Below are positions 39,790 through 52,439 of a stretch of DNA of 52,439 nucleotides, in pieces. A model generated the notes under the pieces. It saw only the letters and a list, made by a program, of their open reading frames with translations, was not told where the DNA came from and ran no database searches. Origin of the DNA: an uncultured Bacteroidaceae bacterium (GTDB lineage Bacteria > Bacteroidota > Bacteroidia > Bacteroidales > P3); assembly GCA_964451895.1 (NCBI GenBank), contig CAYVJX010000001.1, positions 7,802 through 60,240 of the forward strand, written 5' to 3'. The position numbers were made by a program, and so were the translations under genes. Position 1 is the first letter of the stretch. Each line of letters opens with the position of its first letter.

Positions 39790-41427
39790 TTACAAATCAA
39801 ATCTAGTGCCCGCCGGCGGATACCGGCAACCCCGGAAACCCGACCACGGATTCCGGCGGCCTTCGCCTGCATTCACCTGCACGCTTTCAGCATAACGGCG
39901 ATTGGAAATCTGAAATCCCCTGAATCCTCCTCCTTCTTCAGACGGCCAATACACCTGTCCGCTCACTATATCATCCACCAAGGCATCGCCATTGTCGTCC
40001 AATACCCCGTCGCCATCCACGGGAACGAACGAACGCCCCTCCTCGGTACTTACATTGATGCAACGTTCCCAAAGATTATCGCTCATATTCATAATGCCGT
40101 AGTAGCTGGCTCCGGCTTCGTTGCGCATGGTGCTGTCTTTGGCAAACGCCCCCACGCGCATTACCCAAGGCGCCTTGCCCGTTTCTAAATAACAAGCTTC
40201 GGAATTCGAACTGACCTCGGTAGGCAAGCCCGCATCGGTAATGGCATAATTGTTGGCGGCAATGCCGTATTGTTCACCCCATGCCATACCCCGGCGCAAA
40301 AACTGATGCCCGCGGCAGGCTTTTTCAAATTCCATCTCGGTCATGGGGCGCAGACAGGCCCAATCGAGATAGGCCAGGCCATCGTTCCACGAAAGGAAGT
40401 TGCAGGCTATATTGCCGCCGTTGTTTTCCATGGTCCACATGGTATCGACATCAATTCCCGTTATATTATGGCCATAAATGGCGCCCTTGGCGGGATAATC
40501 GTCGGTTTCGGCCTCCGCCGGAATACGGATGCGCACATAGTTCCGGTACGAAGTATTGATGGCATACGGAGAAGCGGGCAACGCCAGACTGCCCTTGCCC
40601 GCAAACGGACTCACATTGGCACGTTCATCCTGCTGTTCGGGCGTAAGCGTATTCAAAAAATCGGCGTAAGCGTGCTGGCTTATCTCGTATTTCATCATAT
40701 ACACGGCCTTGAATCCTTTGGGGAAAGTATCGGACACCGGCGTTCCGAGATAAGACCAACCTTTTTCATCGGTAACCTTGCCCATCAAAGCAGTGCGCCC
40801 ATCGCTTACATCGGTTTTTATAATTAAGTTTTTGCCCTCAGCATAGAGCGATTTTTCGGAAACCCCGTCCCCTATAATATAGGTATTGGCCGGCACATAC
40901 ACCATCTCGATGGCAAAGACTGCCACCTGTATTTCGTCCTGGTCTAGATAATCGTGGTCGCGATAGTTGAACTGCAGACGGATATCCTGAATCACATTGC
41001 TTCCATTCCCCACCTCCTTGCGGTAGATAAAAACGCCGGAAGTTACCAGACTGTCGATGGTAGGCGAAGTGGCGAATTCAGACCAATACTCCACATTGCC
41101 CGAACCTATGCTGTGGGGCAAGGCCATATATGAGCCCGAACCGCTGTTTACCGGATTGCCCTGCGGCTTGGTAAGATATACATGACGCCAAGTGCGGAAA
41201 TCGGAATTATAGCATTTTACAAAGACCCAGGCCGCATCCCAATTACGGTGCAGACGGTCTTTCCAGGAATGATCCCAGGAAAGGCTGAAACGCACAAAAG
41301 CCGTGCCCGTCAGGGTATCACGACCTTCCACCGATACGGTGCCTATTTGGATATTGTTGGCATAAACACCCTTTAGGCCACCCCAAGCCAACAACAGCAA
41401 CAAACCTATTTTAACAATGCTTTTCAA
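39790..41427 (-). CDS. Secreted FGE-sulfatase (SUMF1) fold protein, GldJ/GldK-like, paralog 2 (545 aa); TTG start
   Basis: Listed ORF. N-terminus (M)KSIVKIGLLLLLAWGGLKGVYA|NN looks like a type I signal peptide. FGE-fold hallmarks: FPKGFKAVYMMKYEISQHAYADFLNTL, NDGLAYLDWACLRPMTEMEFEKACRG, GASYYGIMNMSDNLWERCI and a C-terminal GFRGCRY. The start codon at 41427-41425 is TTG. The first in-frame ATG is about 100 codons in and would remove the signal peptide and a region conserved with the paralog. Confidence 0.85.
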   Translation of the reverse strand: MKSIVKIGLLLLLAWGGLKGVYANNIQIGTVSVEGRDTLTGTAFVRFSLSWDHSWKDRLHRNWDAAWVFVKCYNSDFRTWRHVYLTKPQGNPVNSGSGSYMALPHSIGSGNVEYWSEFATSPTIDSLVTSGVFIYRKEVGNGSNVIQDIRLQFNYRDHDYLDQDEIQVAVFAIEMVYVPANTYIIGDGVSEKSLYAEGKNLIIKTDVSDGRTALMGKVTDEKGWSYLGTPVSDTFPKGFKAVYMMKYEISQHAYADFLNTLTPEQQDERANVSPFAGKGSLALPASPYAINTSYRNYVRIRIPAEAETDDYPAKGAIYGHNITGIDVDTMWTMENNGGNIACNFLSWNDGLAYLDWACLRPMTEMEFEKACRGHQFLRRGMAWGEQYGIAANNYAITDAGLPTEVSSNSEACYLETGKAPWVMRVGAFAKDSTMRNEAGASYYGIMNMSDNLWERCINVSTEEGRSFVPVDGDGVLDDNGDALVDDIVSGQVYWPSEEGGGFRGFQISNRRYAESVQVNAGEGRRNPWSGFRGCRYPPAGTRFDL

Positions 41428-41541: not shown

Positions 41542-43443
41542 TTATTTGGCCGCACCGGCGGTACGTACGCAACGGATACCACGCATACCTACCGTTCCCC
41601 GTTGATCCGGATAATATCTGTCTTCTAAGCTCAACGTATGGGTGGAACCTCGACGGTTGGAAACCAAACCGGCCCACTGCCATTCATGCGCTGGCACCGT
41701 TATATCAAACCTATAGTTGGCCACTAACATTCCACGAACAATATAATACCTATAGTTAGTGTAGTCGGTACCCGGAGTGTTGGATGCAGCAAAGGTTAAC
41801 CAATCTTTGTTCATGGCATCGCCATTTCCATCCAACTGACCGGAACCATGCGAACCCTTGAAATTTCTACCCGTGGTATCGTAAACCGAAATACAGATTT
41901 CACCCACATTGTCGCTCATATTCATCACACCCCAGAAACTGGCACCCGAAGAAGCCCGCGTGGTAGTGGAATCTGCAAAACAACCCACACGTACCGGACC
42001 GGAGCACGTAGCCCCCCACCAACAACTCCACCAATTATCACTAACATGTGCGCCAGAATTATATACTTCCTTAGGTCTTTCTGTTCCTGTCCATTGATCT
42101 ATATATCCCCAATTCCTTGCCGGCCAAAAACGCATGGTAACACTCCCCCAAGCAAACTCATCGTTAGCTGGTTTCTTGGGACCACGGCAGGCTTTTTCGT
42201 ATTCTAATTCAGTCATAGGACGCAATCCAGAAAATTCTGCATAAGCCAAAAAGTCTAATACGTTAATCCAGTTCATCGCCAAATCCTGACCATCGATATT
42301 ACGGGTCATGAATTTGTTCTTGGATGAATCGCAACGATAGTCGTAGCAAACTTTGTCGGTTTCATTATATATATTGTTGTTGTTTCCATCACAACCAAAA
42401 ACAACCACAGGTGAAGGCTGCTTAACCTTGATAACATTGCAGTAAAAATCCCAACCGTGTCCATCAAGATCCCGAGTCAACCAAGAGTTTTGCGCAAAAG
42501 TGGACAAAGTACCCTGAATTCTACCGTCCTGCTGACCCTGACTCAAAGTATTCAAAAATTCCACATAGGCTTCCTGGGTCATTTCATACTTCATAATATA
42601 AAATGCTTGATACCCTTTGGGAAACTCTGCAGGAATCGTACCAGCCGTAATACCCGCGCCGCCAACGGTCCACAAGGTGCTTTCTGCCGTGGAATTCGCC
42701 ACTGTAATGGGATCTTCAGATTCAATCACCATCGGACGCCCAAGCGTTGCCTCATCGGTGGTAAACGCAGCATAATGGCGGTTGTCTGCGACAGAACCCG
42801 CGCCGCCCAAATAATAGGCGCCGGTGGGAACATACACCATTTCTACGGCAAACACTTTTACCACCAAGTCGTCTTCATCTACAAAGCCTTGACGCACATA
42901 ATCCCATATCAGCGAAACTCCGGGCACCACGATATGACCAGCGCCATAATCCACCCGACGCAAAAAGAAACCCACCACACATTGTTCTTCTTCTTCTGCC
43001 GGTTCCACATGCCATTTGGGATAAGCCAAAGAAAAACCAGGTTCCAGCATCATCGCCATTGTGGTATTGCTAGCATCGCGGTTAGAAACATAATATTCTT
43101 CATAGCAGGAGGTATCCCCATAGCAGACCGCATCAGTCGGAACAAGACTACCCGGAACATTGGCTATGGTATCTTTTAGATACACATGGTTCCAAGATTC
43201 CCCATCCCAGCATTTTACAAAAATCCAAGCGGCATCGTGGTTCTGCGGCTTGGTGGTTCTCCAGCTATTGTCCCACGCGATATCAAAACTGATAATGGCA
43301 TGGTGCATATTGGTATCCTGCACCAATTTCGGCTTTCCAAGAATACGGATATTGTTGGCATTGGCCAAGCCCGAAAGCATACCCACCAAGGCACAAACAA
43401 AGAGGCCGCGGAGCATACGCCCCATAAGATTACTGCTTTTCAT
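41542..43443 (-). CDS. Secreted FGE-sulfatase (SUMF1) fold protein, GldJ/GldK-like, paralog 1 (633 aa from ATG 43443)
   Basis: Listed ORF 41542..43503, whose first codon is TTG. The ATG at 43443 gives MKSSNLMGRMLRGLFVCALVGMLSGLANA|NN, which is signal-peptide-like. The 20 codons upstream lie in an AT-rich stretch that looks non-coding. It matches the downstream gene block for block: NNIRILG / NNIQIGT, FDIAWDNSWR...HDAAWIFVKCW / FSLSWDHSWK...WDAAWVFVKCY, FAVEMVYVP / FAIEMVYVP, FPKGYQAFYIMKYEMTQEAYVEFLNTL, LRPMTELEYEKACRG, GASFWGVMNMSDNVGEICI, GIRCVR. Confidence 0.85.
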   Translation of the reverse strand: MKSSNLMGRMLRGLFVCALVGMLSGLANANNIRILGKPKLVQDTNMHHAIISFDIAWDNSWRTTKPQNHDAAWIFVKCWDGESWNHVYLKDTIANVPGSLVPTDAVCYGDTSCYEEYYVSNRDASNTTMAMMLEPGFSLAYPKWHVEPAEEEEQCVVGFFLRRVDYGAGHIVVPGVSLIWDYVRQGFVDEDDLVVKVFAVEMVYVPTGAYYLGGAGSVADNRHYAAFTTDEATLGRPMVIESEDPITVANSTAESTLWTVGGAGITAGTIPAEFPKGYQAFYIMKYEMTQEAYVEFLNTLSQGQQDGRIQGTLSTFAQNSWLTRDLDGHGWDFYCNVIKVKQPSPVVVFGCDGNNNNIYNETDKVCYDYRCDSSKNKFMTRNIDGQDLAMNWINVLDFLAYAEFSGLRPMTELEYEKACRGPKKPANDEFAWGSVTMRFWPARNWGYIDQWTGTERPKEVYNSGAHVSDNWWSCWWGATCSGPVRVGCFADSTTTRASSGASFWGVMNMSDNVGEICISVYDTTGRNFKGSHGSGQLDGNGDAMNKDWLTFAASNTPGTDYTNYRYYIVRGMLVANYRFDITVPAHEWQWAGLVSNRRGSTHTLSLEDRYYPDQRGTVGMRGIRCVRTAGAAK

Positions 43444-43705
43444 AATCCCTTTATTTATAATATTTAAAATTATCAACAATTTGTTGAAAACATTTTTTAC
43501 CAACCGCTAAGATACTCATTCCTCGGCAACCAACCAAAAAAGTTAATAAGTTTTTTAGGGGGAGAGTAAAACAGGGTATTGCTTACAAGAAAAATCCTCG
43601 GTATCTTTCTCCGCGTTTTTGTTACCGGGCTGGCGAAACTTTACTTTTTTATCCTAAAATTTCAACCTATCCCGATAGTTTCATGCCCCAAACCGCAAAA
43701 AAACG

Positions 43706-44262: not shown

Positions 44263-44913
44263 ATGAAGACTCTCTTGAAAGTATGCCTTAGTTTGGCTTT
44301 AGGTGGCATGTTGATGCAATACGGCTTCTCGCAAGCCGCCGCGAGTGCCAGTAAAGATGTAACTCCTCCGCCCTCTACCGAAGAGGTGCCCGAACAATAT
44401 CTGACCTCTGAAGACACTACTTTGGGCGAAGAAGCCCTTACACATCATGGCATTCAATTGCCAGCCTCCATCAACATGAAAATTGCAGCCGGAGATATTG
44501 ACGGTGCCTGGAAAGAATTTGAAAACTTTAAACAAGAAGTGGGCAAAGAACAACGCAATCAAGTGCTCGAAGCCGAAGTGATGCTTTGCAACAGATTTAT
44601 CTACGAAGGTTCTAATTACAATAAATGGGCAGCCCAACGAGGGGAAGCACAGCAAGCTCTTTTAAAAGAATTTCCCAAATGGGCGGGTACGTACCGCGCC
44701 TTGATTAATCCCAATGCCAAGCCGGCTCAAATTATTGAATACACCACCAAGGCTATTCAATATGATTCCAAGGAAAACCCCGACTATCTGCTGTATGAAC
44801 AGCGCGGAAGAGCCTACCTCCAAGTAGGCCGCACCACCGAAGCTTGCGCAGATTTTGAAAAATGCCCGGATAAGAGCAGGATTTGGGAATACAAGAGCAC
44901 TTGCGGGAAATAG
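44263..44913 (+). CDS. Exported hypothetical protein (216 aa) with a TPR-like C-terminal region
   Basis: Listed ORF with an ATG start, 25 nt after the previous gene. Signal-like N-terminus MKTLLKVCLSLALGGMLMQYGFSQAAA. The C-terminal stretch AIQYDSKENPDYLLYEQRGRAYLQVGRTTEACADFEK resembles a TPR unit. Confidence 0.7.
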   Translation: MKTLLKVCLSLALGGMLMQYGFSQAAASASKDVTPPPSTEEVPEQYLTSEDTTLGEEALTHHGIQLPASINMKIAAGDIDGAWKEFENFKQEVGKEQRNQVLEAEVMLCNRFIYEGSNYNKWAAQRGEAQQALLKEFPKWAGTYRALINPNAKPAQIIEYTTKAIQYDSKENPDYLLYEQRGRAYLQVGRTTEACADFEKCPDKSRIWEYKSTCGK

Positions 44914-44949
44914 CGAAAAAACTTACGTTTAAATAGTTTTTTAACCCCA

Positions 44950-44990
44950 AAAGCGGCAGAGAATAGTGTTCTTTGCCGCTTTTGTTTTTT
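44950..44990 (+). terminator. Rho-independent terminator after the 44263 gene
   Basis: Stem aaagcggcagag (44950-44961) pairs with ctttgccgcttt (44971-44982): 12 bp including one G-U pair, with a 9-nt loop. It is followed by tgtttttt. Confidence 0.7.
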
Positions 44991-45223
44991 GGGAGGGAAC
45001 TTCACCAGCAAGGTATCACTTTAAATCATTGAGATTCTACGAATCGTATTTCAAACCCAAACTCTCCACAAAAAGCCTTTCTTCTGCTTGAAGCTTTTCT
45101 TTTCTGATTCTTAAATCTTGTTGGTACCTGATTTTCCATTGAATGAAATATTGAAAACAAACTATTAATTCTTTATTCCAAAATAACTCTTTATATTCGC
45201 AAAAACAATTTAACCCAAACGAT

Positions 45224-47002
45224 ATGTGCCATTATCAAGAAACGTGTGAAAAGAAAGAATGTTATTGGGAAGAATACTATAATAAGCACATAGATCAAGA
45301 AAAACATGACATCGTAAATACTGCACTTCCAATTGATGTTAATGGGTTTTGCTTGTTTCATAGCCCCGACATAAAATGGAAACGCAAACAGCATTTCTGC
45401 AAACGTTTAAAAGCATTGCTTAATTGGGCTGAAGAAGATTCAGATATTGAAGATATATCCTTTACTGATTTCATTTTTATAGGATGTCAATCCATAGAAA
45501 CCATAGATAATAATGTATGGGATCAACACGAGAACAAACTGGACACAAAAAAGAAAGATATTTTACTTCTTGATTTTTTAAAAGGAAAGAAAAACCTTAT
45601 ACTTCAAGATTCAAAATTTATAGATCCCTTAATCATTGAAAACGCAACATTAGCACAAGACCTCATTATTGATCATTGTGTCTTTGAAGACAGTATATCA
45701 ATAAACAAACTTATCATCAAATCTGATTTATTTATTCAATACTCTGAATTTAAAAAACATTTCATCTGGGATGGCAAAAACAAAATAAAGGGGAATACCT
45801 CCATTTTGGACAACAAATTCAAAGGAAGAATCAACTTTTGGGGCTTGATTTTTGAAAATTTTGTTGTAATAGATAATAATATCTTTAATAAATCTGACTA
45901 TGTGACCGGCTTTACTTGTTCTTTCAAAGAAGGTTTGGACTTTACCCGTAATAAATTTACAGACATATATTTCGATGGGTGTTGTTTTATGAAAGATTGT
46001 ACTTTTGCCGAATTACATCAACAATACCATTCTTTTACTATCAGAAAACCTAGTATCCAAGGACAACTATCCTTTGTGGGAACATCTGATAATTTGTTGT
46101 TTAATACAAATTCTAGAATCCATATTTCCAAAGAATGTTTCCATGATACGGGACGTGTTTCTTTTGATTATTGTAATATTGAAAGTTTAGGAACAATCTT
46201 TATTGAAAACATTAAATCTCTTGAAGATCTTGGCCTAGCTTATATTTCTCCTACTTGTCAGATTGAAAGATTAACTATTATACATGAATACAAACCATAT
46301 ACATCATTGACTGCTAATATCATCGAAGACTTTGCACACTTAATCGCCCGTTATTTCAGTCGATGGCATACCGTGAATCTTATGGTGCGAATAAATAGAG
46401 ACAAGGCCAATCAACGCTTTTTGTTGGTTTTTAAAACAACTGATAATCTTTCAGAGGATGAATTTCGTGATATAATGAAAAGATTCCACCACACAATGTA
46501 TCAACATATACCATCAAAAGATGACGAAATCAAAGATATTATTGCCACCTATTACAATATTGTCGAACGCCTAAGTAAAAATAGCAATATTATCGGCATT
46601 GAAAATATCAAACGTATTTTATCAATGCAAAACACAATAAATATAGAAACGTTAAATATAAATACTGCACAAATGGAAATTAAAAATTCACAAATAGGAG
46701 CTATCGCAATGGGAGACAATGCCCATTTCGAAAACATTTTGGTCGAAAAAACAAATTTAGAATCGAATTATCAATCATTAATTGATGAATTAAATGGATT
46801 AATTCGATTATTACAAAGAGAACATAAAGATTGTGAAAACATCATCGCACAATTACAAAAAGCCATCGAAGCCGCAAAACAAAAAAAAGATACAGTACTG
46901 AAAGAAACTTTAAAAAAGTTACCTCATTGGGTTGTAAAAACAACACATAATATTGGTGTTGGAGTATTGAGTTCTTACATATCTCAAATACTTGGAATAT
47001 AA
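45224..47002 (+). CDS. AT-rich orphan protein (592 aa): N-terminal Cys/His cluster, pentapeptide-like or beta-helix-like repeats, coiled coil, C-terminal hydrophobic tail
   Basis: Listed ORF with an ATG start. It is clearly more AT-rich than its neighbours. N-terminus MCHYQETCEKKEC...FCLFHS. Loosely periodic hydrophobic repeats such as FIDPLIIENATLAQDLIIDHCVFEDSISINKLIIKSDLFIQYSEF and FTCSFKEGLDFTRNKFTDIYFDGCCFMKDCTFAEL. Coiled-coil-like LIDELNGLIRLLQREHKDCENIIAQLQKAIEAAKQKK. The last 18 aa, HNIGVGVLSSYISQILGI, are hydrophobic. Confidence 0.75.
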   Translation: MCHYQETCEKKECYWEEYYNKHIDQEKHDIVNTALPIDVNGFCLFHSPDIKWKRKQHFCKRLKALLNWAEEDSDIEDISFTDFIFIGCQSIETIDNNVWDQHENKLDTKKKDILLLDFLKGKKNLILQDSKFIDPLIIENATLAQDLIIDHCVFEDSISINKLIIKSDLFIQYSEFKKHFIWDGKNKIKGNTSILDNKFKGRINFWGLIFENFVVIDNNIFNKSDYVTGFTCSFKEGLDFTRNKFTDIYFDGCCFMKDCTFAELHQQYHSFTIRKPSIQGQLSFVGTSDNLLFNTNSRIHISKECFHDTGRVSFDYCNIESLGTIFIENIKSLEDLGLAYISPTCQIERLTIIHEYKPYTSLTANIIEDFAHLIARYFSRWHTVNLMVRINRDKANQRFLLVFKTTDNLSEDEFRDIMKRFHHTMYQHIPSKDDEIKDIIATYYNIVERLSKNSNIIGIENIKRILSMQNTINIETLNINTAQMEIKNSQIGAIAMGDNAHFENILVEKTNLESNYQSLIDELNGLIRLLQREHKDCENIIAQLQKAIEAAKQKKDTVLKETLKKLPHWVVKTTHNIGVGVLSSYISQILGI

Positions 47003-47021
47003 ACATGAAAGCAGATTGCTC

Positions 47022-47145
47022 TTATGATGCAACACGCAAGCCGGCTTCGAGCCAGATATCCATATCCACCGGATAATCCCATTGGGAGTTGTATTCGGAG
47101 GCACGTTTGTGCTTTAAGATGTTGCGGTTATGGGGTAAAATCGAA
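47022..47145 (-). repeat. Remnant copy 1 of the serine-hydrolase 3' end (direct repeat, att-like)
   Basis: The minus strand translates to RNILKHKRASEYNSQWDYPVDMDIWLEAGLRVAS*. The intact gene end is RGILGQYIIVIPDLNTVIVRLGHKRASEYNAEWDYPVDMDIWLEAGLRVAR*. This copy has the same 17-codon gap as copy 2. Confidence 0.8.
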
Positions 47146-47169
47146 TAAGAAATGAAAATCCTTATATCT

Positions 47170-47940
47170 TCAATTCTCATGTCCGCTCTTTTTTACTGAG
47201 GTTTGGATTTCATCAAAAAGAGATTTTTTCTCCTCCAAAGGTTCTTTCAGCAAAGGAGATACTTGAAAGGTGCTCAACATTTCTATGGTCTCTTGCCTCA
47301 TTTTGGTTTTGACAAAACTCTTTGCTTTCGGATCTGTCAGCAGTTCTCCCACCCCATAGATGATAAGTTTGTCGGAGGTATCTTTCAACAGTGTGATACA
47401 TTTTGAAAGATAGTTGTTGAAGGGCATCTGCATGCGTCTTTCCACGGTTTGTGCATGAATGGGCGTTCGCGTCTTTAAGAAAAACCAACAATCGAACACA
47501 TCCCTTCCCGTCACATCTTTTCTGTCGGACAAAGCGCAAAGCTTATGCGCGAACATATCGGATTTCTCCATTACCCGAATCGCCGTTCCTCCCAAATCAA
47601 GCATGGTGTAACTATCCTGATTGTCCCGATTGGAGATTTCGATTTTCATATTCCTTTCGCCAGGAGCATAATTCACAACTGCCAACGAGCCAAAATGTTT
47701 CATGGCTCTATCTTCAATCTTTCCGTATTTCTTTGCCAACGAGAAAACTTTGTTGTAAACAAAATCTTCTTTGGATTTATCCAACAAGTTAAAATCCAAA
47801 TCAACCGAAAAACGGGGCAAGTGATAGAAGAACATGAGCGCACTTCCCCCCTTGAATCCAAGCAGAGGTGCGAGTGAAGCATCCGTAAAAATGTCACGGA
47901 GCATCTGTGTCATGTAGTATTTGTGCAAAGCATTATCCAT
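47170..47940 (-). CDS. abiEii: AbiEii/AbiGii-family nucleotidyltransferase toxin (type IV TA), 256 aa
   Basis: Listed ORF with an ATG start. It carries the hallmark FKGGSALMFFYHLPRFSVDLDF (GGxAL ... RFSxDLDF) of the DUF1814/AbiEii family. Its start lies 1 nt from the stop of the upstream AbiEi-like gene. Confidence 0.85.
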   Translation of the reverse strand: MDNALHKYYMTQMLRDIFTDASLAPLLGFKGGSALMFFYHLPRFSVDLDFNLLDKSKEDFVYNKVFSLAKKYGKIEDRAMKHFGSLAVVNYAPGERNMKIEISNRDNQDSYTMLDLGGTAIRVMEKSDMFAHKLCALSDRKDVTGRDVFDCWFFLKTRTPIHAQTVERRMQMPFNNYLSKCITLLKDTSDKLIIYGVGELLTDPKAKSFVKTKMRQETIEMLSTFQVSPLLKEPLEEKKSLFDEIQTSVKKSGHEN

Positions 47941-47941
47941 C

Positions 47942-48520
47942 TCACTTTTGTTTAAAAAGTTTATTCACGTCTCTTTCCAACGTTTTACTTCCATAAATCG
48001 GAAGGATCTCCTTTATCTTTTTGTAGGAAAGGATGTGGGTGTTATCAAACTCTCTTTGCTTATTCAGGTACATAAGGTCGAGCAAGGCACGCTCGGGCGT
48101 GGCAATACTGTAACCATCCTTTTGAACAATCCCTGCATCTTGACACAAAATCGAGCCTTTTATTTTGCGATAGCGGAATGTATTTCCGTCCACCTCTACA
48201 TCTCGCGACAGGTAACTGACGGCCGTAATGGAGGAATCATATTGAAAGACCACACCAACGCGTTGCAACACATATTCCAAGGAAATGTAAGAGGGGCGGT
48301 ACAGGCGATTGCACAGTTCCTCAACACGATAACCAGGTTTGGCATAAATACCGCGGCGAGGATTCAAAAGCCGCCCTCTCTGCACTTGATAATTCAAACG
48401 TTTTACGAGTACCGACATGTTTTCCTTAAAATCGGTAAGCATTGCCACCATAGGCAAAGTAAATACCGTATAATAAGAACTATAGATAACAAGCAATTCG
48501 TTGCATCGTGAACTATACAT
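47942..48520 (-). CDS. abiEi: AbiEi-family antitoxin / transcriptional regulator, 192 aa
   Basis: Listed ORF with an ATG start. RRGIYAKPGY and RPSYISLEYVLQRVGV match the AbiEi pattern (RG.Y..., SYISLE.AL...G) as I recall it. Gene order and tight coupling with AbiEii support the call. Confidence 0.75.
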   Translation of the reverse strand: MYSSRCNELLVIYSSYYTVFTLPMVAMLTDFKENMSVLVKRLNYQVQRGRLLNPRRGIYAKPGYRVEELCNRLYRPSYISLEYVLQRVGVVFQYDSSITAVSYLSRDVEVDGNTFRYRKIKGSILCQDAGIVQKDGYSIATPERALLDLMYLNKQREFDNTHILSYKKIKEILPIYGSKTLERDVNKLFKQK

Positions 48521-48545
48521 ACCAACAAATAGGATTTTCAGTTCA

Positions 48546-48553
48546 CAAAGTTA
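48546..48553 (-). promoter_or_regulatory. Candidate -7 promoter box (TAACTTTG on the minus strand) for the abiEi-abiEii operon
   Basis: Plus-strand caaagtta at 48546-48553 is an exact TAnnTTTG on the minus strand, 25 nt upstream of the ATG at 48520. Confidence 0.4.
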
Positions 48554-48596
48554 CAATAAATCCTTACAAATAAAACATCATCTGAGCCACCACTTC

Positions 48597-48722
48597 AAAG
48601 CGCAGCCCGCAACCCGGCTTCAAGCCAGATATCCATATCTACGGGATAATCCCATTCGGCATTGTATTCGGAAGCGCGTTTATGACCTAAGATGTTGCGG
48701 TGGGGGTAAATCAAATAAGTTC
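48597..48722 (-). repeat. Remnant copy 2 of the serine-hydrolase 3' end (direct repeat, att-like)
   Basis: The minus strand translates to YPHRNILGHKRASEYNAEWDYPVDMDIWLEAGLRAAL*. About 79 nt (48609-48687) align almost base for base with 49965-50043. Confidence 0.8.
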
Positions 48723-48735
48723 GCTATTTTTGCAT

Positions 48736-49936
48736 ATGGCATTACCTGTCAATATAGAGGAATTGCTTTCCAAGCATAAAGTCGAATCCAGCCGAATAGA
48801 ATTTAAGCGCGGATGGAATCCGGAAGGGATTTATCGATCCATTTGCGCTTTTGCCAATGATTTCGATAACCTCGGTGGAGGATACATTCTGGTTGGCGTA
48901 GAGGAAGAACATGGTATTGCAAAACGTCCGGTAAAGGGACTGGATTTGGCGCATATAGATGGCATCCTTAAGGATATGGTCGGGTACAACAACAAGATTT
49001 ATCCATATTACCTGCCCCGCACCGAAATAGCGGAAATCGACCATCAAAAGATCTTGGTAATATGGGTTCCTTCCGGAGTTAACCGCCCTTACAGTGTGGC
49101 GGAAAATGTTCTATCTCCCAAAAGTGTATCCAAATACTATATCCGTTCCGGAAGCACCACTATCGAAGCCAAGGGAGAAGTCCTTGAGGAACTACGGGAT
49201 TCAGTTTCCCGTACCCCTTTCGATGAACGGGGAAATCCGGACATAAAAATCGAAGACATTCGTCATTCGGGAACACATCATTAAGCCTAATGACCGAGCG
49301 GAATCCGTACGCGTGTTCAACTATCCTTATCAAGCTCTTGAGGAAAGCATCGTAAATGCTTTGTATCATCGGGATTATATGGAGCGTGAACCAGTAGAGA
49401 TAACCATTGAACCGAACTTGATAAGCATTCTCAGTTTTGCCGGACCGGATCGCTCCATCAGCATGGAAGCCATCCAACAAGCCCGCCGATTGAAATCCCG
49501 TAGATACCGAAACCGGAGACTGGGTGATTTCTTAAAGGAATTGAATTTTACCGAGGGACGTTCTACCGGTATTCCTACTATTCAAGACTCGCTTGAAAAA
49601 AACGGATCCGCTCCGGCAAGAATCATCACCGATGAAGACAGAACCTCTTTTCTGATGGAAATACCCTGCCGCAACGGGGAAGAAGGAGTTCCAGCCATAG
49701 AGAATCTTGCAAATGAGCAAATAAATGAGCAAATAAACTTATCTGACCAACAAAAGGTTATCTTAAGGATGATTGCCGACAACCCTTCGATTTCTTTTGC
49801 AAAAATCGCTGCAGTATTGAATGTAAAGCCAAGTCTTATACGTTCCCAGTGCAAAGCCATGGAAAAACATGTCGTACTTAAACGCAATGGTTCCAAGAAA
49901 ACCGGAACATGGCAGATTCTATTCGTGAAACAGTAA
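48736..49936 (+). pseudogene. AlbA_2 (Schlafen-like) plus RecG-like HATPase_c_4 / wHTH ATP-binding regulator gene, disrupted by an internal out-of-frame deletion
   Basis: First ORF, from ATG 48736: MALPVNIEELLSKHKVESSRIEFKRGWNPEGIYRSICAFANDFDNLGGGYILVGV, an AlbA_2 pattern, ending at the stop at 49282-49284. The +1 frame is open from 49247 and reads ...IKPNDRAESVRVFNYPYQALEESIVNALYHRDY, the start of the HATPase_c_4-like half. The listed second ORF begins only at a GTG (49313). As I recall intact homologs, about 100 aa separate these two points. Confidence 0.55.
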
Positions 49937-49950
49937 CTGCCCCCTCTTTC

Positions 49951-51126
49951 TTAACGCGCAACGCGCAACCCGGCTTCAAGCCAGATATCCATATCTACGG
50001 GATAATCCCATTCGGCGTTGTATTCGGAGGCACGTTTATGACCCAGGCGCACAATAACGGTGTTCAGGTCGGGAATCACGATAATATATTGCCCCAAGAT
50101 GCCGCGGAAATATTTTACGGGGTGGCCTTGGTATTCCATAAGCCAGAACTGGTAGCCGTACATTGTGCAGGGGGCTTCCTGGCCGTTGGGAAGAATGGCC
50201 TTGAGATAGGTGGCGGGGGTGGTTGCCTGAGTTATATAGGCCGAATCCACCACGCTGAGGCGGCCTTGGGGTGTGTTCCAATAGCCGTTTTGCAACACTA
50301 ACTGCCCCAAGCGCGCAAAGTCGCGGGCGTTGCTGTTAAAGCAGCAGTAGGCTTTTTCCATACCGTCTTGGCGGTCAAGGCTCCAAAGAGCGTCTTCTTC
50401 GGCTTGGATGGGAGTCCAGATCTTTTCGGAGGCGTAATCGGCTATGTGCTTGCCGGTGGCTTTCTTGAGCAGGAACGCCAGAATCTGCGTAACGCCGCTC
50501 TGGTAGTTGAAATACTCGCCCGGTGTGGACTCCAGCACTTCCCGCCGGGTCAGGCTCCATAAATCTCTGCCGTAATAGGCTTCGGTGGTGGTGGAAAAAA
50601 GCGAGGTGGAGCTTTCGTCCCACTTCACACCGGCGCTCATGGTAAGCAAATCCTTGATGGTAAGCGGTTTTCCGTTAAACGAGCCCCATTCTGGCAGGAA
50701 ATCGGAAACGGGCTGGTCAACGCTTTTGATATAACCGTCGGTTATGGCACAGCCCACCAGCAGGGAAACGATGCTTTTGGCCATCGAGAACGAGTTGCTG
50801 TGCGAATGGGGACCATATCCATCCCAATACTGTTCGGTAACGATGATGCCGTCTTTCAGCACCAAGAAAGCCACCGTGCCGTAACGGGCAAATTCTTCTT
50901 CCAAACCGCTGTCGGACTTGCGCTCGGCCACGCCCGGCGCAAAGGGCATCGGTGCGGGATTGCCGGCCTTTACCACCCGGTTATCGAAAATGGGGTATTG
51001 GTCTATCTTGGGATAGGTATGCCATAAGGCCCGATGCACATAATAGTTGCCCGGAAACACCAGCACCGCCACACATCCGAGCACAAGCAAGAACAGGAGT
51101 ATCAGGATTGTTTTCTTTAGGTTCAT
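49951..51126 (-). CDS. Membrane-anchored serine hydrolase, beta-lactamase/PBP4* family (391 aa)
   Basis: Listed ORF with an ATG start. N-terminal anchor MNLKKTILILLFLLVLGCVAVLVF. S-x-x-K active-site motif in NSFSMAKSIVSLLVG. Confidence 0.85.
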   Translation of the reverse strand: MNLKKTILILLFLLVLGCVAVLVFPGNYYVHRALWHTYPKIDQYPIFDNRVVKAGNPAPMPFAPGVAERKSDSGLEEEFARYGTVAFLVLKDGIIVTEQYWDGYGPHSHSNSFSMAKSIVSLLVGCAITDGYIKSVDQPVSDFLPEWGSFNGKPLTIKDLLTMSAGVKWDESSTSLFSTTTEAYYGRDLWSLTRREVLESTPGEYFNYQSGVTQILAFLLKKATGKHIADYASEKIWTPIQAEEDALWSLDRQDGMEKAYCCFNSNARDFARLGQLVLQNGYWNTPQGRLSVVDSAYITQATTPATYLKAILPNGQEAPCTMYGYQFWLMEYQGHPVKYFRGILGQYIIVIPDLNTVIVRLGHKRASEYNAEWDYPVDMDIWLEAGLRVAR

Positions 51127-51151
51127 TAGAAACTATCGTAAGGGTATATAA

Positions 51152-51418
51152 CTAATCGTAATGTCCATACGCCGACAGAACCAACACCTTGATTTCTTTG
51201 TCATTAACTTCATAAACAAGGCGATGTTTCTGACTTATTCTTCGAGACCATGTGGGAGTGTCAAAACCTTTCAGTTGCTCTGGATGCCCTGTTCCGGTGG
51301 TCGGGTGTTCAGAAAGCTCTTCCAGCAGTTTCATCGCTTTTTTGTAATGAGCCGGTTCAGACTTTCTGATTTTGATTAGGCCTTCCAAGGCTTTTATGGT
51401 ATAATCAACCTTGTACAT
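51152..51418 (-). CDS. yoeB: Txe/YoeB-family type II toxin (88 aa from ATG 51418)
   Basis: MYKVDYT...HPTTGTGHPEQLKGFDTPTWSRRISQKHRLVYEVNDKEIKVLVLSAYGHYD matches the YoeB pattern (G.G.PE.L ... SRRI...HRLVY ... GHY). The listed ORF start at 51427 is a TTG. The ATG at 51418 overlaps the antitoxin stop by 14 nt. Confidence 0.85.
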   Translation of the reverse strand: MYKVDYTIKALEGLIKIRKSEPAHYKKAMKLLEELSEHPTTGTGHPEQLKGFDTPTWSRRISQKHRLVYEVNDKEIKVLVLSAYGHYD

Positions 51419-51683
51419 GACCTTCAATAATCATACGGTCTAAAAACTCATCAAAAGATTCTTCAGGTTTTTTGGAATACACCAAACCCTGCGCTGCCTG
51501 TTCTTTAGCACGCCTTATCTTGGCATAAAACTCCTCTTTGGTCATCAAGGTATCGTCTTTCTCAACCTTCGATATCTTAAAGGCATCTTTCTTGCGCGTG
51601 ATAAGCAACTCGATACCCTGTGCCACCTGGTCTAAGTAATGGCGTTGGTTGGTTCGGAACTCCCGGGAACTGATTGCAAGCAT
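51405..51683 (-). CDS. Phd/YefM-like antitoxin (92 aa from ATG 51683)
   Basis: MLAISSREFRTNQRHYLDQVAQGIELLITRKKD resembles a Phd/YefM N-terminus. It overlaps the toxin start. A TAnnTTTG box lies inside the longer listed ORF, which favours the downstream ATG. Confidence 0.7.
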   Translation of the reverse strand: MLAISSREFRTNQRHYLDQVAQGIELLITRKKDAFKISKVEKDDTLMTKEEFYAKIRRAKEQAAQGLVYSKKPEESFDEFLDRMIIEGHVQG

Positions 51684-51704
51684 ATCATTATGATTTTGAT
51701 GATT

Positions 51705-51712
51705 CAAAGGTA
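51705..51712 (-). promoter_or_regulatory. Candidate -7 promoter box (TACCTTTG on the minus strand) for the antitoxin-yoeB operon
   Basis: Plus-strand caaaggta at 51705-51712 is an exact TAnnTTTG on the minus strand, 21 nt upstream of the ATG at 51683. Confidence 0.45.
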
Positions 51713-51728
51713 CAGAAAAAAACATAAT

Positions 51729-51743
51729 GTACCAAAATGGTAC
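51729..51743. promoter_or_regulatory. Perfect 6-3-6 palindrome GTACCA-AAA-TGGTAC, candidate antitoxin operator
   Basis: Read directly at 51729-51743. It sits 17 nt upstream of the -7 box, over the expected -33 region of the TA operon promoter. Confidence 0.35.
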
Positions 51744-51787
51744 ACACTAATCCAGTTATATCAAAACGATTCTCTTGTATTTCACGG

Positions 51788-52099
51788 CTAACTTATTGTA
51801 AGGCTTACTTGTCTTCCAAGTCCCTCAAATATACGGAAGAGCGTACTTAACTGTACATCGGCTTTGCCATTTTCCAAACGGGATATATAGGTTTTTTGTG
51901 TACCGATCTTTTCGGCAAGCTGTTCTTGAGTAAGCCCTGCCCGATGACGTTCTTCTTTTAATGTCTGCGCAAGACAAAAAGCCCGTGTTTCTTCGTCAAA
52001 TTTATCACGAGAACGCGTACCTTTTACGCCATATTCAACATCAAGAAGTTCTTCAAGGTTGTTGCAAGCCAACAACTTTTCTCTTTTATCTTTTTTCAT
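51788..52099 (-). CDS. XRE-family HTH antitoxin, HigA-like (103 aa from ATG 52099)
   Basis: The HTH segment GLTQEQLAEKIGTQKTYISRLENGKADVQLSTLFRIFEGLG is typical of XRE/Cro-C1 proteins. The listed start at 52114 is a TTG. The ATG at 52099 lies 1 nt after the toxin stop codon (52101-52103). Confidence 0.8.
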   Translation of the reverse strand: MKKDKREKLLACNNLEELLDVEYGVKGTRSRDKFDEETRAFCLAQTLKEERHRAGLTQEQLAEKIGTQKTYISRLENGKADVQLSTLFRIFEGLGRQVSLTIS

Positions 52100-52100
52100 C

Positions 52101-52409
52101 TTATTTGGTATCAAAATATTCTTTCATTAACCTTTCGGCTTTCTCTATTTCTTTTTGCGGTGTCTTTTGTGTTTTCTTTTGAAAAGCATTAAACAACACT
52201 ACAATCTTACCTTTATCAAAACAACAAAATATGCGGAAGATATTGCTTCCCACCTCCACCCGGATTTCAAACAAGCCTTTAACGCTCTCTATGCTACGAA
52301 AGATAGATAAAGGCAATCGGTCAACTTCTTGTATCCAAACAAGTGTCTGTGCTATCTTTTTTCGCACTTGTGCTGTTTGGAAATGCGGCACGTTCCAAGA
52401 GAACCACAC
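52101..52409 (-). CDS. RelE/ParE-superfamily toxin, HigB / phage Gp49-like (102 aa, GTG start)
   Basis: LFEIRVEVGSNIFRIFCCFDKGKIVVLFNAFQKKTQKTPQKEIEKAERLMKEY matches the Gp49-like HigB pattern (l.ElR ... riff ... ivl...f.KKtqktP..ei..A). The toxin-first gene order is typical of HigBA. The start is a GTG at 52409, bounded by an in-frame TAG at 52413-52415. Confidence 0.75.
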   Translation of the reverse strand: MWFSWNVPHFQTAQVRKKIAQTLVWIQEVDRLPLSIFRSIESVKGLFEIRVEVGSNIFRIFCCFDKGKIVVLFNAFQKKTQKTPQKEIEKAERLMKEYFDTK

Positions 52410-52439
52410 TTTCTACGTGGTCTGTAAACGGAAACATAT

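What the first reader, a model, noticed from the sequence alone, without database searches (positions are those of the whole stretch)
47022..50107. The serine-hydrolase 3' end occurs three times and brackets the AbiE and AlbA_2 cassettes: serial insertion at one att-like site
The last ~30 codons of the hydrolase gene (49951-50043) recur as remnants at 48,597-48,722 and 47,022-47,145. The orientation is the same and each keeps its stop codon. The remnants translate to ...RNILGHKRASEYNAEWDYPVDMDIWLEAGLRAAL* and ...RNILKHKRASEYNSQWDYPVDMDIWLEAGLRVAS*. Both share a 17-codon gap relative to the intact gene, so they derive from a common variant rather than independently from the resident gene. The layout is: AT-rich orphan gene, remnant 1, abiEii-abiEi, remnant 2, AlbA_2 pseudogene, intact hydrolase. 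That is the footprint of successive site-specific integrations into a gene 3' end, each bringing a replacement end, or of cassette exchange by recombination at this repeat. No integrase or recombinase gene is in the window, so the mobilising function is missing, remote or lost.
Basis: seen in the sequence. Interest (0 to 1): 0.65.

Follow-up and report, generated by a model that had tools for sequence, protein, structure and literature searches.

The report
Displaced gene ends mark stacked defence cassettes
Behind a conserved serine-hydrolase gene of an uncultured Bacteroidales bacterium, defence genes have been added one after another, each arriving with a fresh copy of the gene's last 30 codons and pushing the old end outward; this is a clear natural record of how an integrase-free defence hotspot grows, but the kind of process is already known.

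Summary
The last 31 codons of the PF00144 hydrolase gene occur three times in the same orientation, each with a stop codon: 49951-50043 (intact), 48595-48687 (R2) and 47022-47114 (R1). Chance expects none. They bracket an AlbA_2 pseudogene and an AbiEi/AbiEii pair.

- Empty sites in about 100 loci.
- AlbA_2 plus one remnant (L001, L028).
- AbiE, R1 and the orphan gene without AlbA_2 (L008).
- An independent case in a hydrolase only 64% identical (L033).

Each remnant is a former working gene end. R2 carries the stop and tail that follow the intact gene in L008. The L001 remnant carries the native tail seen in L030.

Recent exchange looks like homologous recombination. Identical tracts run past the repeats into the flanking core genes, and one remnant has been gene-converted by its intact copy. 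I found no integrase in the window or downstream of the hydrolase in 110 related loci. The junctions are not at one fixed position.

The "17-codon gap" is not statistically supported. A site-specific founding step cannot be excluded, because the same junction codon recurs in two distant lineages. My verdict is sequential 3'-end displacement at a defence hotspot, a new member of a known kind.

The parts
49951..51126 (-). Intact serine hydrolase gene (391 aa, PF00144 beta-lactamase/CubicO-type). It is a conserved core gene that sits next to rumA across Bacteroidales.
   Evidence: Pfam E 1.4e-26. 6364 homologues at E<=1e-60. The rumA-hydrolase pairing is seen in L002, L003, L012 and L014-L026.
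49951..50043 (-). R3: the current functional 3' end of the hydrolase (codons G362 to the stop, ending ...LEAGLRVAR*). This is the copy that the remnants repeat.
48736..49936 (+). AlbA_2 (Schlafen-type) / HATPase_c_4 / wHTH gene, here a pseudogene and the newest cargo module. It has a 314-nt internal deletion at about 49254 that shifts the frame. Its 12-nt NEQI-coding repeat has 4 fewer units than in L001.
   Evidence: Pfam PF04326, PF13749 and HTH_24 on the two fragments. About 90% nt identity to the intact 523-aa L001 copy, with the indels listed. Intact copies at the same position in L001 and L028.
48688..48719 (-). Linker of R2 (CTTATTTGATTTACCCCCACCGCAACATCTTA). It lies between the AlbA_2 5' region and the displaced gene end. 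It is homologous to the R1 linker, and its first 12 nt also precede the L001/L028 remnant.
   Evidence: R1-R2 p<2e-4. Not significantly like hydrolase sequence. No hairpin.
48595..48687 (-). R2: displaced gene end (G362 to the stop, ...LEAGLRAAL*). It is the positional homologue of the functional gene end of strain L008.
   Evidence: L008 1563-7239 aligns with window 48687-43000. Same stop (TGA) and same tail as the L008 intact gene.
48550..48594 (-). Native tail of the R2-type gene end (AGTGGTGGCTCAGATG...), leading into the AbiE module.
   Evidence: Same tail (one mismatch) follows the intact hydrolase stop codon in L008. It lies outside the AbiE homology with L027.
47203..48549 (-). AbiE cargo module: AbiEi antitoxin/regulator (47942-48520) and AbiEii nucleotidyltransferase toxin (47170-47940).
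   Evidence: PADLOC AbiEi 2.9e-73 and AbiEii 1.3e-89. Pfam PF08843. The same pair occurs at 84.6% nt identity in L027, without linker or remnant, which delimits the cargo as 47203-48549.
47115..47149 (-). Linker of R1 (CTTATTCGATTTTACCCCATAACCGCAACATCTTA).
47022..47114 (-). R1: the oldest displaced gene end (K/G362 to the stop, ...LEAGLRVAS*). About 20 nt of tail follow it (47000-47021) and resemble the tail behind the intact gene in L001/L028.
   Evidence: (R1 49-152 against L001 1510-1614, 87.6%). 100% identical in L007-L011 and in L008.
45224..47002 (+). AT-rich (about 30% GC) 592-aa gene of unknown function. It is the outermost cargo, between R1 and the TPR gene. It is absent from L001, L002 and L028.
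   Evidence: GC profile. No Pfam, PADLOC, NCBIfam or PHROG hit. 111 representative relatives, the best at 43% identity. AF2 model at pLDDT 85 with a beta-helix, and no PDB fold match.
44263..44913 (+). TPR-like lipoprotein gene, the right-hand core flank of the hotspot. The window/L008 near-identical tract ends about 100 nt inside its 3' end (about 44807). A hairpin terminator lies at 44948-44984.
   Evidence: Orthologues in L001, L002, L008 and L028. Identity profile. Terminator.
51152..52409 (-). Second variable interval on the 5' side of the hydrolase. It holds YoeB (51152-51427) with YefM (51405-51725), and HigA-like HTH (51788-52114) with HigB/Gp49 (52101-52409), between the rumA 3' end (52321-52437) and the hydrolase. 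No remnants here.
   Evidence: Pfam. This interval is absent in L003, L012 and L014-L026, and is replaced by a PDC-S01 ATPase in L002/L029.

Best explanation
This is sequential 3'-end displacement at an integrase-free defence and accessory-gene hotspot.

The interval between the conserved hydrolase gene and the conserved TPR-lipoprotein gene is a hotspot that relatives fill differently. New cargo enters directly behind the hydrolase reading frame, together with a copy of the gene's last codons. The former gene end, with its stop codon and native tail, is pushed outward and survives as a remnant. The array therefore reads newest to oldest going away from the gene: R3 + AlbA_2, then R2 + tail + AbiE, then R1 + tail + orphan.

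The incoming DNA is most likely chromosomal DNA from related strains.
- On the left it recombines homologously within the hydrolase body.
- On the right it joins just upstream of the resident gene end. In founding events this join is illegitimate or uses very short homology. In later stacking events a donor remnant pairs out of register with the resident intact end.

Once direct repeats exist, ordinary RecA-type recombination does the rest. It exchanges whole blocks between strains through the flanking core genes, converts remnants against the intact copy, and can delete cassettes.

Steps shown:
- Variable content across relatives.
- Remnants are former functional ends.
- Tract ends lie in the flanking genes.
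- Gene conversion occurs between copies.
- No recombinase gene is present.

Steps inferred:
- The nature of the right-hand join.
- The direction of individual events.
For: 1. Content varies between the same flanks.
- Empty or otherwise occupied sites occur in L012, L014-L026 and L030.
- A PDC-S01 ATPase follows the hydrolase in L002.
- Intact AlbA_2 plus one remnant occurs in L001 and L028.
- AbiE + R1 + orphan without AlbA_2 occurs in L008.

2. Remnants are former gene ends.
- R2 has the stop and tail of L008's intact gene.
- The L001/L028 remnant ends in the 16-nt native tail CCGAAAGTAAAATAAC of the cassette-free L030 gene.
- The R1 tail resembles the L001 intact tail.

3. Recombination tracts ignore the repeats.
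- Window and L008 are about 100% identical from the R2 tail through AbiE, R1 and the orphan, to about 100 nt inside the TPR gene. There are 3 mismatches in about 3700 nt. The hydrolase body is a 92-100% mosaic, and the TPR and lipoprotein genes are 90-97%.
- L028 and L001 share a 100% identical AlbA_2 cassette. Identity decays gradually into the hydrolase, from 98% down to 66%, and into the TPR gene.

4. Gene conversion occurs between copies. The L028 remnant is an island of 7 mismatches in 108 nt inside otherwise identical DNA. At 5 of 6 aligned sites it carries the base of L028's own intact copy.

5. No recombinase was found.
- None in the window.
- None in the Pfam-annotated contexts.
- No tyrosine-recombinase box II motif downstream of the hydrolase in 110 loci.
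- Phage_integrase is not among the 8 Pfam families that recur in 81 representative downstream ORFs. Only 25 of the 109 families found are shown, so a single occurrence could be hidden.
- The gene-end pattern is absent from viral contigs.

6. Junctions are not at one fixed site (G362 against Q346/Y347). The sequences after R3 and R2 share nothing (p 0.86).

7. Cargo is separable from the repeat. An AbiE pair 91% (aa) identical lies elsewhere without linker or remnant.

8. In L033 the duplication includes the native terminator and about 40 nt beyond it. The incoming copy therefore came from a chromosomal hydrolase locus.

9. Precedent exists.
- Hotspots without mobility genes recombine at their flanking core genes (PMC5635113).
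- Displaced-3'-end arrays have been explained by a homologous anchor plus an illegitimate join (PMC5361080).
Against: - R1 and R2 have the same junction and share a 32-35 nt linker next to unrelated cargo. This is what shared att arms would look like.
- The remnant junction falls at the same codon, Q346/Y347 in the invariant GxLGQY motif, in L001/L028 and in L033. Those hydrolases are only about 64% identical, and their cargo and 5' flanks are unrelated. The chance of this is about 0.6-5%.
- All junctions lie in the last 45 codons. Donors carrying a whole gene could leave remnants of any length.
- All 93 nt of R2 look like the L008 gene end right up to the linker. A purely homologous crossover would therefore have to lie within about 11 nt of the junction, unless conversion homogenised R2 afterwards.
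- The founding join is inferred, not observed.
- Physical linkage across R2 rests on the window assembly alone. Logan contigs L007, L009 and L010 all start at 48637, inside the 52-nt stretch shared by R2 and R3.
Confidence: 0.5

Rival explanations
1. Site-specific accretion. Each module is a decayed or naturally minimal integrative element, like a CIME. It inserted into an att site in the hydrolase 3' end through a tyrosine or serine recombinase that is now lost or encoded elsewhere. In this reading R3, R2 and R1 are attL/attR copies and the linker is the element's P arm.
For: - The direct repeats restore the gene each time, and the order is polar, as in ICE/IME/CIME tandem arrays (PMC5704250).
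- R1 and R2 share both the junction and the linker.
- All 93 nt of R2 are the former resident end.
- The same junction codon recurs independently in L033 and in L001/L028.
- All junctions lie in the last 45 codons.
Against: - No integrase in the window or downstream of the hydrolase in 110 loci, and no match in viral contigs.
- There are two different junction positions for homologous AlbA_2 cargo: Y347 in L001 and G362 in the window.
- No shared sequence follows R3 and R2, and none lies 5' of the L033 and L001 remnants.
- The modules are 1.0-1.6 kb with a single system and no mobility gene. Three independent decays would each have had to spare both ends.
- Recently shared tracts run through the repeats into the core genes.
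- AbiE occurs elsewhere without the repeat.
- The L033 duplication includes the host terminator.
Confidence: 0.3
2. Assembly chimera. The two-cassette stack in the window is an artefact that joins two co-existing strains. One strain would be hyd-AlbA_2-remnant and the other hyd-AbiE-R1-orphan, joined through the 52-nt stretch that is identical in R2 and R3. Each real genome would then hold only one remnant.
For: - No independent contig spans R2. L007, L009 and L010 start at 48637, inside the shared stretch.
- Both single-cassette arrangements exist in nature (L001/L028 and L008).
Against: - On both sides of the shared stretch, R2 matches neither L008 exactly nor R3. Its left part carries its own variants plus the linker.
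- A break at that point is equally expected if both copies are in one genome.
- Even if the stack were chimeric, the remnants, the linker and the variable content would all remain.
Confidence: 0.08
3. Decayed tandem paralogues. The hydrolase was duplicated in tandem and the extra copies eroded to their 3' ends. The genes between them would be unrelated to any insertion process.
For: The copies are in the same orientation and the remnants are decaying. The L033 remnant has internal stops.
Against: - Content between the copies varies among close relatives, and about 100 loci are empty.
- Each remnant carries a different native tail that matches the intact gene end of another strain.
- No trace of hydrolase sequence was found 5' of the junctions.
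Confidence: 0.03

Closest known systems
C-terminal / 3'-end displacement arrays of Rhs, CDI and T6SS effector-immunity loci (Jackson 2009, cited in PMC5361080; Kirchberger 2017, PMC5361080)
   Same: - A constant gene is followed by a same-orientation string of orphaned 3' fragments.
- Each new module arrives with a new 3' end and shifts the old one downstream.
- No integrase is involved.
- The proposed mechanism is a homologous anchor in the conserved part plus an illegitimate join.
- The arrays are later moved between strains by ordinary homologous recombination.
   Different: - The gene here is a housekeeping-type serine hydrolase, not a polymorphic toxin.
- The displaced ends encode nearly the same 30 residues, so nothing is diversified apart from the last 2-3 residues.
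- The passengers are defence or toxin-antitoxin genes rather than toxin tips with immunity genes.
Tandem accretion of ICE/IME/CIME elements at the 3' end of a gene (for example ICESt1/ICESt3-related CIMEs at fda; review PMC5704250)
   Same: - Direct repeats of the target gene's end flank each module.
- The gene is restored at each insertion.
- Integrase-less modules are flanked by repeats.
- The cargo includes abortive-infection genes.
   Different: - No cognate integrase or element was found at this site anywhere.
- Junction positions are not fixed.
- The repeats are 93-140 nt of diverging gene end rather than a short identical core.
- Recent exchange tracts do not end at the repeats.
Horizontal-transfer and defence hotspots without mobility genes, turned over by recombination at flanking core genes (Oliveira 2017, PMC5635113; core defence hotspots, PMC10250203)
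   Same: - Variable defence content between two conserved genes.
- No integrase or transposase.
- Mosaic, recombined flanking core genes.
   Different: This locus also keeps a physical record of the order of insertion, in the form of displaced gene ends. Hotspot descriptions do not usually report that.
Integron gene-cassette arrays
   Same: Small, promoter-poor, single-function cassettes are stacked in a polar order next to one insertion point.
   Different: - There is no IntI.
- There is no attC-like hairpin (z about 0).
- The repeats are gene ends.
- Cassette orientation is not uniform: AlbA_2 is on the plus strand and AbiE on the minus strand.

Membership tests
Site-specific integrative element arrays (ICE/IME/CIME accretion) | [quoted passage not shown] | tested here: met
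   R3, R2 and R1 are in the same orientation and bracket AlbA_2 and AbiE.
Site-specific integrative element arrays (ICE/IME/CIME accretion) | A cognate integrase, either in the array or in related elements at the same site in other genomes | tested here: not met
   None in the window. None in the Pfam-annotated related contexts. No recombinase box II motif downstream of the hydrolase in 110 loci; the only hits are a Xer-like gene about 6 kb upstream in L051-L055 and L060. Flanks were limited to 6-10 kb.
Site-specific integrative element arrays (ICE/IME/CIME accretion) | One fixed crossover core shared by all att copies | tested here: inconclusive
   R1 and R2 share one junction (G362). L001, L028 and L033 share another (Q346/Y347). 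So there are two positions, each of them recurrent.
Site-specific integrative element arrays (ICE/IME/CIME accretion) | Excision as a circle with a precise attP junction and a precise empty site | not testable with these tools
   No read data were available. Assembled contigs show only linear arrangements.
[quoted passage not shown] | Different gene content between the same two core genes in related genomes | tested here: met
   Window, L008, L001/L028 and L002/L029 all lie between the hydrolase and TPR-lipoprotein orthologues and carry different cargo.
[quoted passage not shown] | Recombination breakpoints or mosaicism in the flanking core genes | tested here: met
   Identity profiles for window against L008 and L028 against L001. 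This rests on only two strain pairs.
3'-end (C-terminal) displacement arrays (Rhs / CDI / T6SS type) | A constant gene followed by orphaned 3' fragments, each a former functional end | tested here: met
   R2 matches the L008 functional end plus tail. The L001 remnant matches the L030 native end plus tail.
3'-end (C-terminal) displacement arrays (Rhs / CDI / T6SS type) | The displaced part encodes a variable toxin domain paired with an immunity gene | tested here: not met
   The displaced ends encode the same ...HKRASEYN..WDYPVDMDIWLEAGLR sequence, and only the last 2-3 residues differ. The gene is a PF00144 hydrolase. The locus works like this family but is not a member of it.
Integron cassettes | attC hairpin recombination sites and an IntI integrase | tested here: not met
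   DNA folding z-scores run from -0.3 to +1.0 on both strands. No integrase was found (calls above).
AbiE type IV toxin-antitoxin / abortive infection system (the cargo) | Adjacent AbiEi (wHTH antitoxin) and AbiEii (nucleotidyltransferase) genes | tested here: met
   PADLOC AbiEi 2.9e-73 and AbiEii 1.3e-89. Pfam PF08843 4.5e-17. The two genes abut, at 47942-48520 and 47170-47940.

The most novel reading that the evidence does not exclude
The 1.0-1.6 kb modules may be true mini-cassettes, each made of a gene end, one cargo system and a ~35-nt arm. A trans-acting site-specific recombinase would insert them at conserved coding motifs of the hydrolase gene (GQY / GHK). That would amount to an integron-like cassette platform in Bacteroidota with no attC hairpins and no linked integrase, used independently in lineages only 64% identical.
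Probability: 0.1. Interest if true: 0.75.

Novelty: new member of a known kind. Interest (0 to 1): 0.4.

Why it matters
Many defence islands sit in hotspots that have no integrase or transposase, and how genes get into them is usually inferred only statistically. This locus keeps a physical record. Every insertion left the previous gene end behind, with its stop codon and native tail. The order of arrival can therefore be read directly: orphan, then AbiE, then AlbA_2.

Related strains capture the intermediate states. The locus also shows gene conversion between the copies, and exchange tracts that end in the flanking core genes.

That makes it a compact natural test case for how much of defence-island growth is plain homologous or illegitimate recombination rather than dedicated mobile elements. 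In practice, displaced ends of core genes could serve as a search key for hotspots of this type in metagenomes.

Tried and rejected
- Scanning viral contigs and JGI metagenome contigs for the degenerate gene-end pattern gave 0 matches.
- An exact-protein look-up of the window hydrolase found nothing on record.
- A protein search with the 52-aa R1 ORF, meant to find other remnants called as small genes, returned only itself.
- The homologue search with the intact L001 AlbA_2 protein timed out twice. Contexts of AlbA_2 relatives outside this locus were therefore not examined.
- I tested the linker as decayed hydrolase sequence, which is the 17-codon-gap idea. It was not significant for R1, R2 or the L001 remnant.
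- I looked for shared arms 5' of the remnants across lineages, and for shared sequence after R3 and R2. There is none.
- I tested for attC-like or other secondary structure in the repeats, and for any Rfam family in 44800-52439. There is none.
- A tRNA or tmRNA target does not apply. There are none in the window.
- The look-up of the window TPR protein, meant to find alternative neighbours, returned only the same arrangement.
- The long plus-strand ORFs at 408-38795 could have been a hidden phage or ICE carrying an integrase. I rejected this. They have no Pfam or PHROG hits and are antisense shadows of one giant minus-strand ORF.

Full report
**Observation**

The window's minus strand carries a 391-aa PF00144 serine hydrolase at 49951-51126. 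Its last 31 codons, G362 to the stop (49951-50043, "R3"), recur twice downstream in the same orientation.
- R2 lies at 48595-48687 and ends ...LEAGLRAAL* with TGA.
- R1 lies at 47022-47114 and ends ...LEAGLRVAS* with TAA.

Identities are 93% (R2/R3), 90% (R1/R3) and 83% (R1/R2 over 121 nt), with E-values from 1e-28 to 1e-35. A 34-nt core pattern matches three times, against none in 100 shuffles.

The copies bracket two modules.
- An AlbA_2/HATPase_c_4/wHTH gene at 48736-49936 (+). It is a pseudogene, with a 314-nt frame-breaking deletion.
- An AbiEi/AbiEii pair at 47942-48520 and 47170-47940 (-).

Beyond R1 lies an AT-rich 592-aa gene at 45224-47002 (+), followed by a conserved TPR-like lipoprotein gene.

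No integrase or transposase is present anywhere in the window. Positions 3-39782 are a single giant minus-strand ORF, and the long plus-strand "ORFs" there are its antisense shadows. The window has no tRNA.

- R1 and R2 do share a 32-35 nt extension ("linker", 47115-47149 and 48688-48719; p<2e-4).
- Its resemblance to hydrolase sequence 17 codons upstream is not above chance (p 0.04-0.27).
- A different alignment with a 12-nt gap scores about as well.

**What relatives show**

The hydrolase is a core gene that follows rumA in many Bacteroidales. I examined 110 related loci from genomes, Logan/ENA assemblies and JGI metagenomes. I could score 103 of them for a second copy of their own gene end, and 84 of those had at least 1 kb of downstream sequence. 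Only four showed a remnant.

| Locus | Hydrolase identity to window | Arrangement |
|---|---|---|
| L001, L028 | 93% and 83% aa | hydrolase, intact AlbA_2, one remnant, TPR gene |
| L008 | 94% nt (97% aa) | YoeB, hydrolase, AbiEi-AbiEii, R1, orphan, TPR gene; no AlbA_2 |
| L002 | 86% aa | a PDC-S01 (DUF4143) ATPase in the interval, no remnant |
| L029 | 85% aa | as L002, but that gene is deleted down to its last 12 codons |
| L012, L014-L026, L030 | 80-94% aa | no cassette |
| L033 | 64% aa | hydrolase + terminator, RDD-family gene, remnant + duplicated terminator, DUF4395 gene, next core gene |

In the relatives of L033, hydrolase, terminator and the next core gene are directly adjacent.

**Remnants are former functional ends**

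- L008's intact gene runs straight into what is R2 and its downstream DNA in the window. It has the same TGA stop, the same tail (AGTGGTGGCTCAG...), and then AbiE.
- The L001/L028 remnant ends with CCGAAAGTAAAATAAC. That is the native end and tail of the cassette-free L030 gene, and the remnant shares L030's variants.
- The first 20 nt or so of the R1 tail resemble the tail behind the intact gene in L001/L028.

Each insertion therefore happened upstream of the then-current gene end and supplied a new end. The array reads newest (AlbA_2) to oldest (orphan) going away from the gene. The last 2-8 codons and the tail are hypervariable even among cassette-free genomes (VAR*, VAL*, VTF*, ATN*, AVRLIP*, STAAPRK*). 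That suggests repeated joining events at the very end of this gene.

**How exchange happens now**

Two strain pairs are informative.

Window against L008:
- The two are about 100% identical from the R2 tail through AbiE, R1 and the orphan, to about 100 nt inside the TPR gene. There are 3 mismatches in about 3700 nt.
- The hydrolase body is a 92-100% mosaic.
- The TPR and lipoprotein genes are 90-97% identical.

L028 against L001:
- The AlbA_2 cassette is 100% identical apart from a repeat-number change.
- Identity falls gradually into the hydrolase, from 98% to 66%, and into the TPR gene.

In both pairs the tract ends lie in the flanking core genes, not at the repeats. Inside the identical L028/L001 block the remnant is an island of 7 mismatches in 108 nt. 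At 5 of 6 aligned sites L028's remnant carries the base of L028's own intact copy, which indicates gene conversion between the copies.

The AbiE pair occurs at 84.6% nt identity in another context (L027) with neither linker nor remnant. The cargo is therefore separable from the repeat.

The repeats have no hairpin potential and no Rfam match. The gene-end pattern is absent from viral contigs.

Integrases were searched for in three ways.
- A recombinase box II motif scan of all 110 loci found only a Xer-like gene about 6 kb upstream of the hydrolase in one Bacteroides-like group.
- Among 81 representative downstream ORFs, Phage_integrase is not among the 8 Pfam families that recur. The listing shows only 25 of 109 families, so a single occurrence could be hidden.
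- None of the Pfam-annotated contexts contains one.

**Best explanation**

I read this as sequential 3'-end displacement at an integrase-free hotspot. DNA from a related strain carries hydrolase sequence, a gene end and cargo.
- It recombines homologously in the hydrolase body.
- It joins just upstream of the resident gene end. In founding events this join is illegitimate. In later stacking events a donor remnant pairs out of register with the resident intact end.

Ordinary homologous recombination then moves whole blocks between strains, converts the copies and can delete cassettes.

This is the model proposed for orphan 3'-end arrays in Rhs and T6SS effector-immunity loci (PMC5361080). It also fits the finding that hotspots lacking mobility genes recombine at their flanking core genes (PMC5635113). 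In L033 the duplicated segment includes the native terminator and about 40 nt beyond it. That points to a chromosomal hydrolase locus, not an element's att arm, as the source of the incoming copy.

**What does not fit, and the main rival**

Four observations sit awkwardly with pure homologous recombination.
- R1 and R2 share both the junction and a linker, next to unrelated cargo.
- The remnant junction falls at the same codon, Q346/Y347 in the invariant GxLGQY motif, in L001/L028 and in L033. The hydrolases are only 64% identical, and the cargo and 5' flanks are unrelated. I estimate the chance at 0.6-5%.
- All junctions lie within the last 45 codons.
- All 93 nt of R2 look like the L008 gene end right up to the linker. 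A homologous crossover would have to sit within about 11 nt of the junction, unless conversion homogenised R2 afterwards.

These are the features expected of att sites in ICE/IME/CIME accretion (PMC5704250). I give that rival 0.3.

Against the rival:
- No integrase was found at this site anywhere.
- Homologous AlbA_2 cargo has two different junction positions.
- No sequence is shared after R3 and R2, or across lineages.
- The modules are small, at 1.0-1.6 kb, with no mobility gene.
- The exchange tracts do not stop at the repeats.

A caveat applies to the two-cassette stack itself. No independent contig spans R2, and the Logan contigs L007, L009 and L010 begin at 48637, inside the 52-nt stretch shared by R2 and R3. 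I give an assembly chimera 0.08. Even then each genome would still carry a remnant with a linker.

**Novelty and score**

Serial insertion with replacement ends and variable cassettes is supported. A dedicated att/integrase mechanism is not. The process belongs to known kinds: hotspot turnover by recombination, 3'-end displacement arrays, and possibly att accretion. What is new is the setting, a housekeeping hydrolase in uncultured Bacteroidales with defence cargo, and the unusually legible order of insertion.

Interest is 0.4. The most novel reading not excluded is a trans-mobilised mini-cassette platform that targets conserved coding motifs. I give it probability 0.1 and interest 0.75 if true.

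Noticed in passing
window 3-39782 (- strand): A single stop-free reading frame of at least 13,260 aa runs off the left end of the window. It is a giant V/T/S/A/D/G-rich, repeat-containing surface-type protein with a signal-like N-terminus. Every long plus-strand ORF at 408-38795 is its antisense shadow and has no Pfam or PHROG hit. Two FGE-sulfatase-domain proteins follow it (39790-41427 and 41542-43503). An orthologous start is visible in L002 at about 17702.
   Followed up: partly
window 51152-52437; L002 8501-9859; L003, L012, L014-L026: The 5' side of the hydrolase is a second variable interval. YefM/YoeB and HigB(Gp49)/HigA pairs sit between rumA and the hydrolase in the window. L002/L029 have a PDC-S01 ATPase there instead. 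In most relatives rumA abuts or overlaps the hydrolase. The rumA C-terminus in the window is extended and altered (…VVLLERAAFPNSTS…). No remnants mark this side.
   Followed up: partly
window 45224-47002 (+): The 'orphan' is not unique. It belongs to a sparse family: 111 representatives among 1.84 billion proteins, the nearest at 43% identity, with no Pfam model. It has conserved N-terminal Cys/His residues. The AlphaFold model (pLDDT 85) shows a right-handed beta-helix at about residues 110-300, then an alpha/beta domain and a helical tail. There is no PDB fold match at E<0.01. It is a candidate unknown defence or accessory gene.
   Followed up: partly
L033 5447-8475 (Ga0302265_1000212): This is an independent 3'-end duplication at the same gene in a lineage only 64% identical. 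A 138-nt gene end plus terminator is duplicated around an RDD-family membrane-protein gene, and a DUF4395 gene lies beyond the remnant. Relatives L034-L048 have the empty site. The remnant junction falls at the same codon (Q346/Y347) as in L001/L028.
   Followed up: yes
L002 11076-12431 vs L029 2633-2700: The PDC-S01 (AAA_14/DUF4143) gene downstream of the hydrolase in L002 is deleted in L029, leaving only its last 12 codons or so. This shows cargo loss by simple deletion at the same hotspot. A second locus also has a DUF4143 gene downstream of the hydrolase.
   Followed up: partly
window ~49709; L001 1922-1969; L028 ~1556: A 12-nt tandem repeat encoding NEQI inside AlbA_2 varies in copy number. 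L001 has 4 more units than both the window copy and the otherwise identical L028 copy.
   Followed up: no
hydrolase C-termini in window, L001, L002, L008, L012, L028, L030: The last 2-8 codons after the conserved ...WLEAGLR, together with the downstream tail, differ in almost every lineage, including cassette-free ones (VAR*, VAL*, VTF*, ATN*, AVRLIP*, STAAPRK*). It looks as if the extreme gene end has been rewritten repeatedly by joining events.
   Followed up: partly
L007, L009, L010 (position 1 = window 48637): Three Logan contigs from different samples all start at the same base inside R2, within the 52-nt stretch that is identical to R3. This is the expected de Bruijn break at the repeat. 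It means that no independent assembly confirms the linkage across R2.
   Followed up: partly
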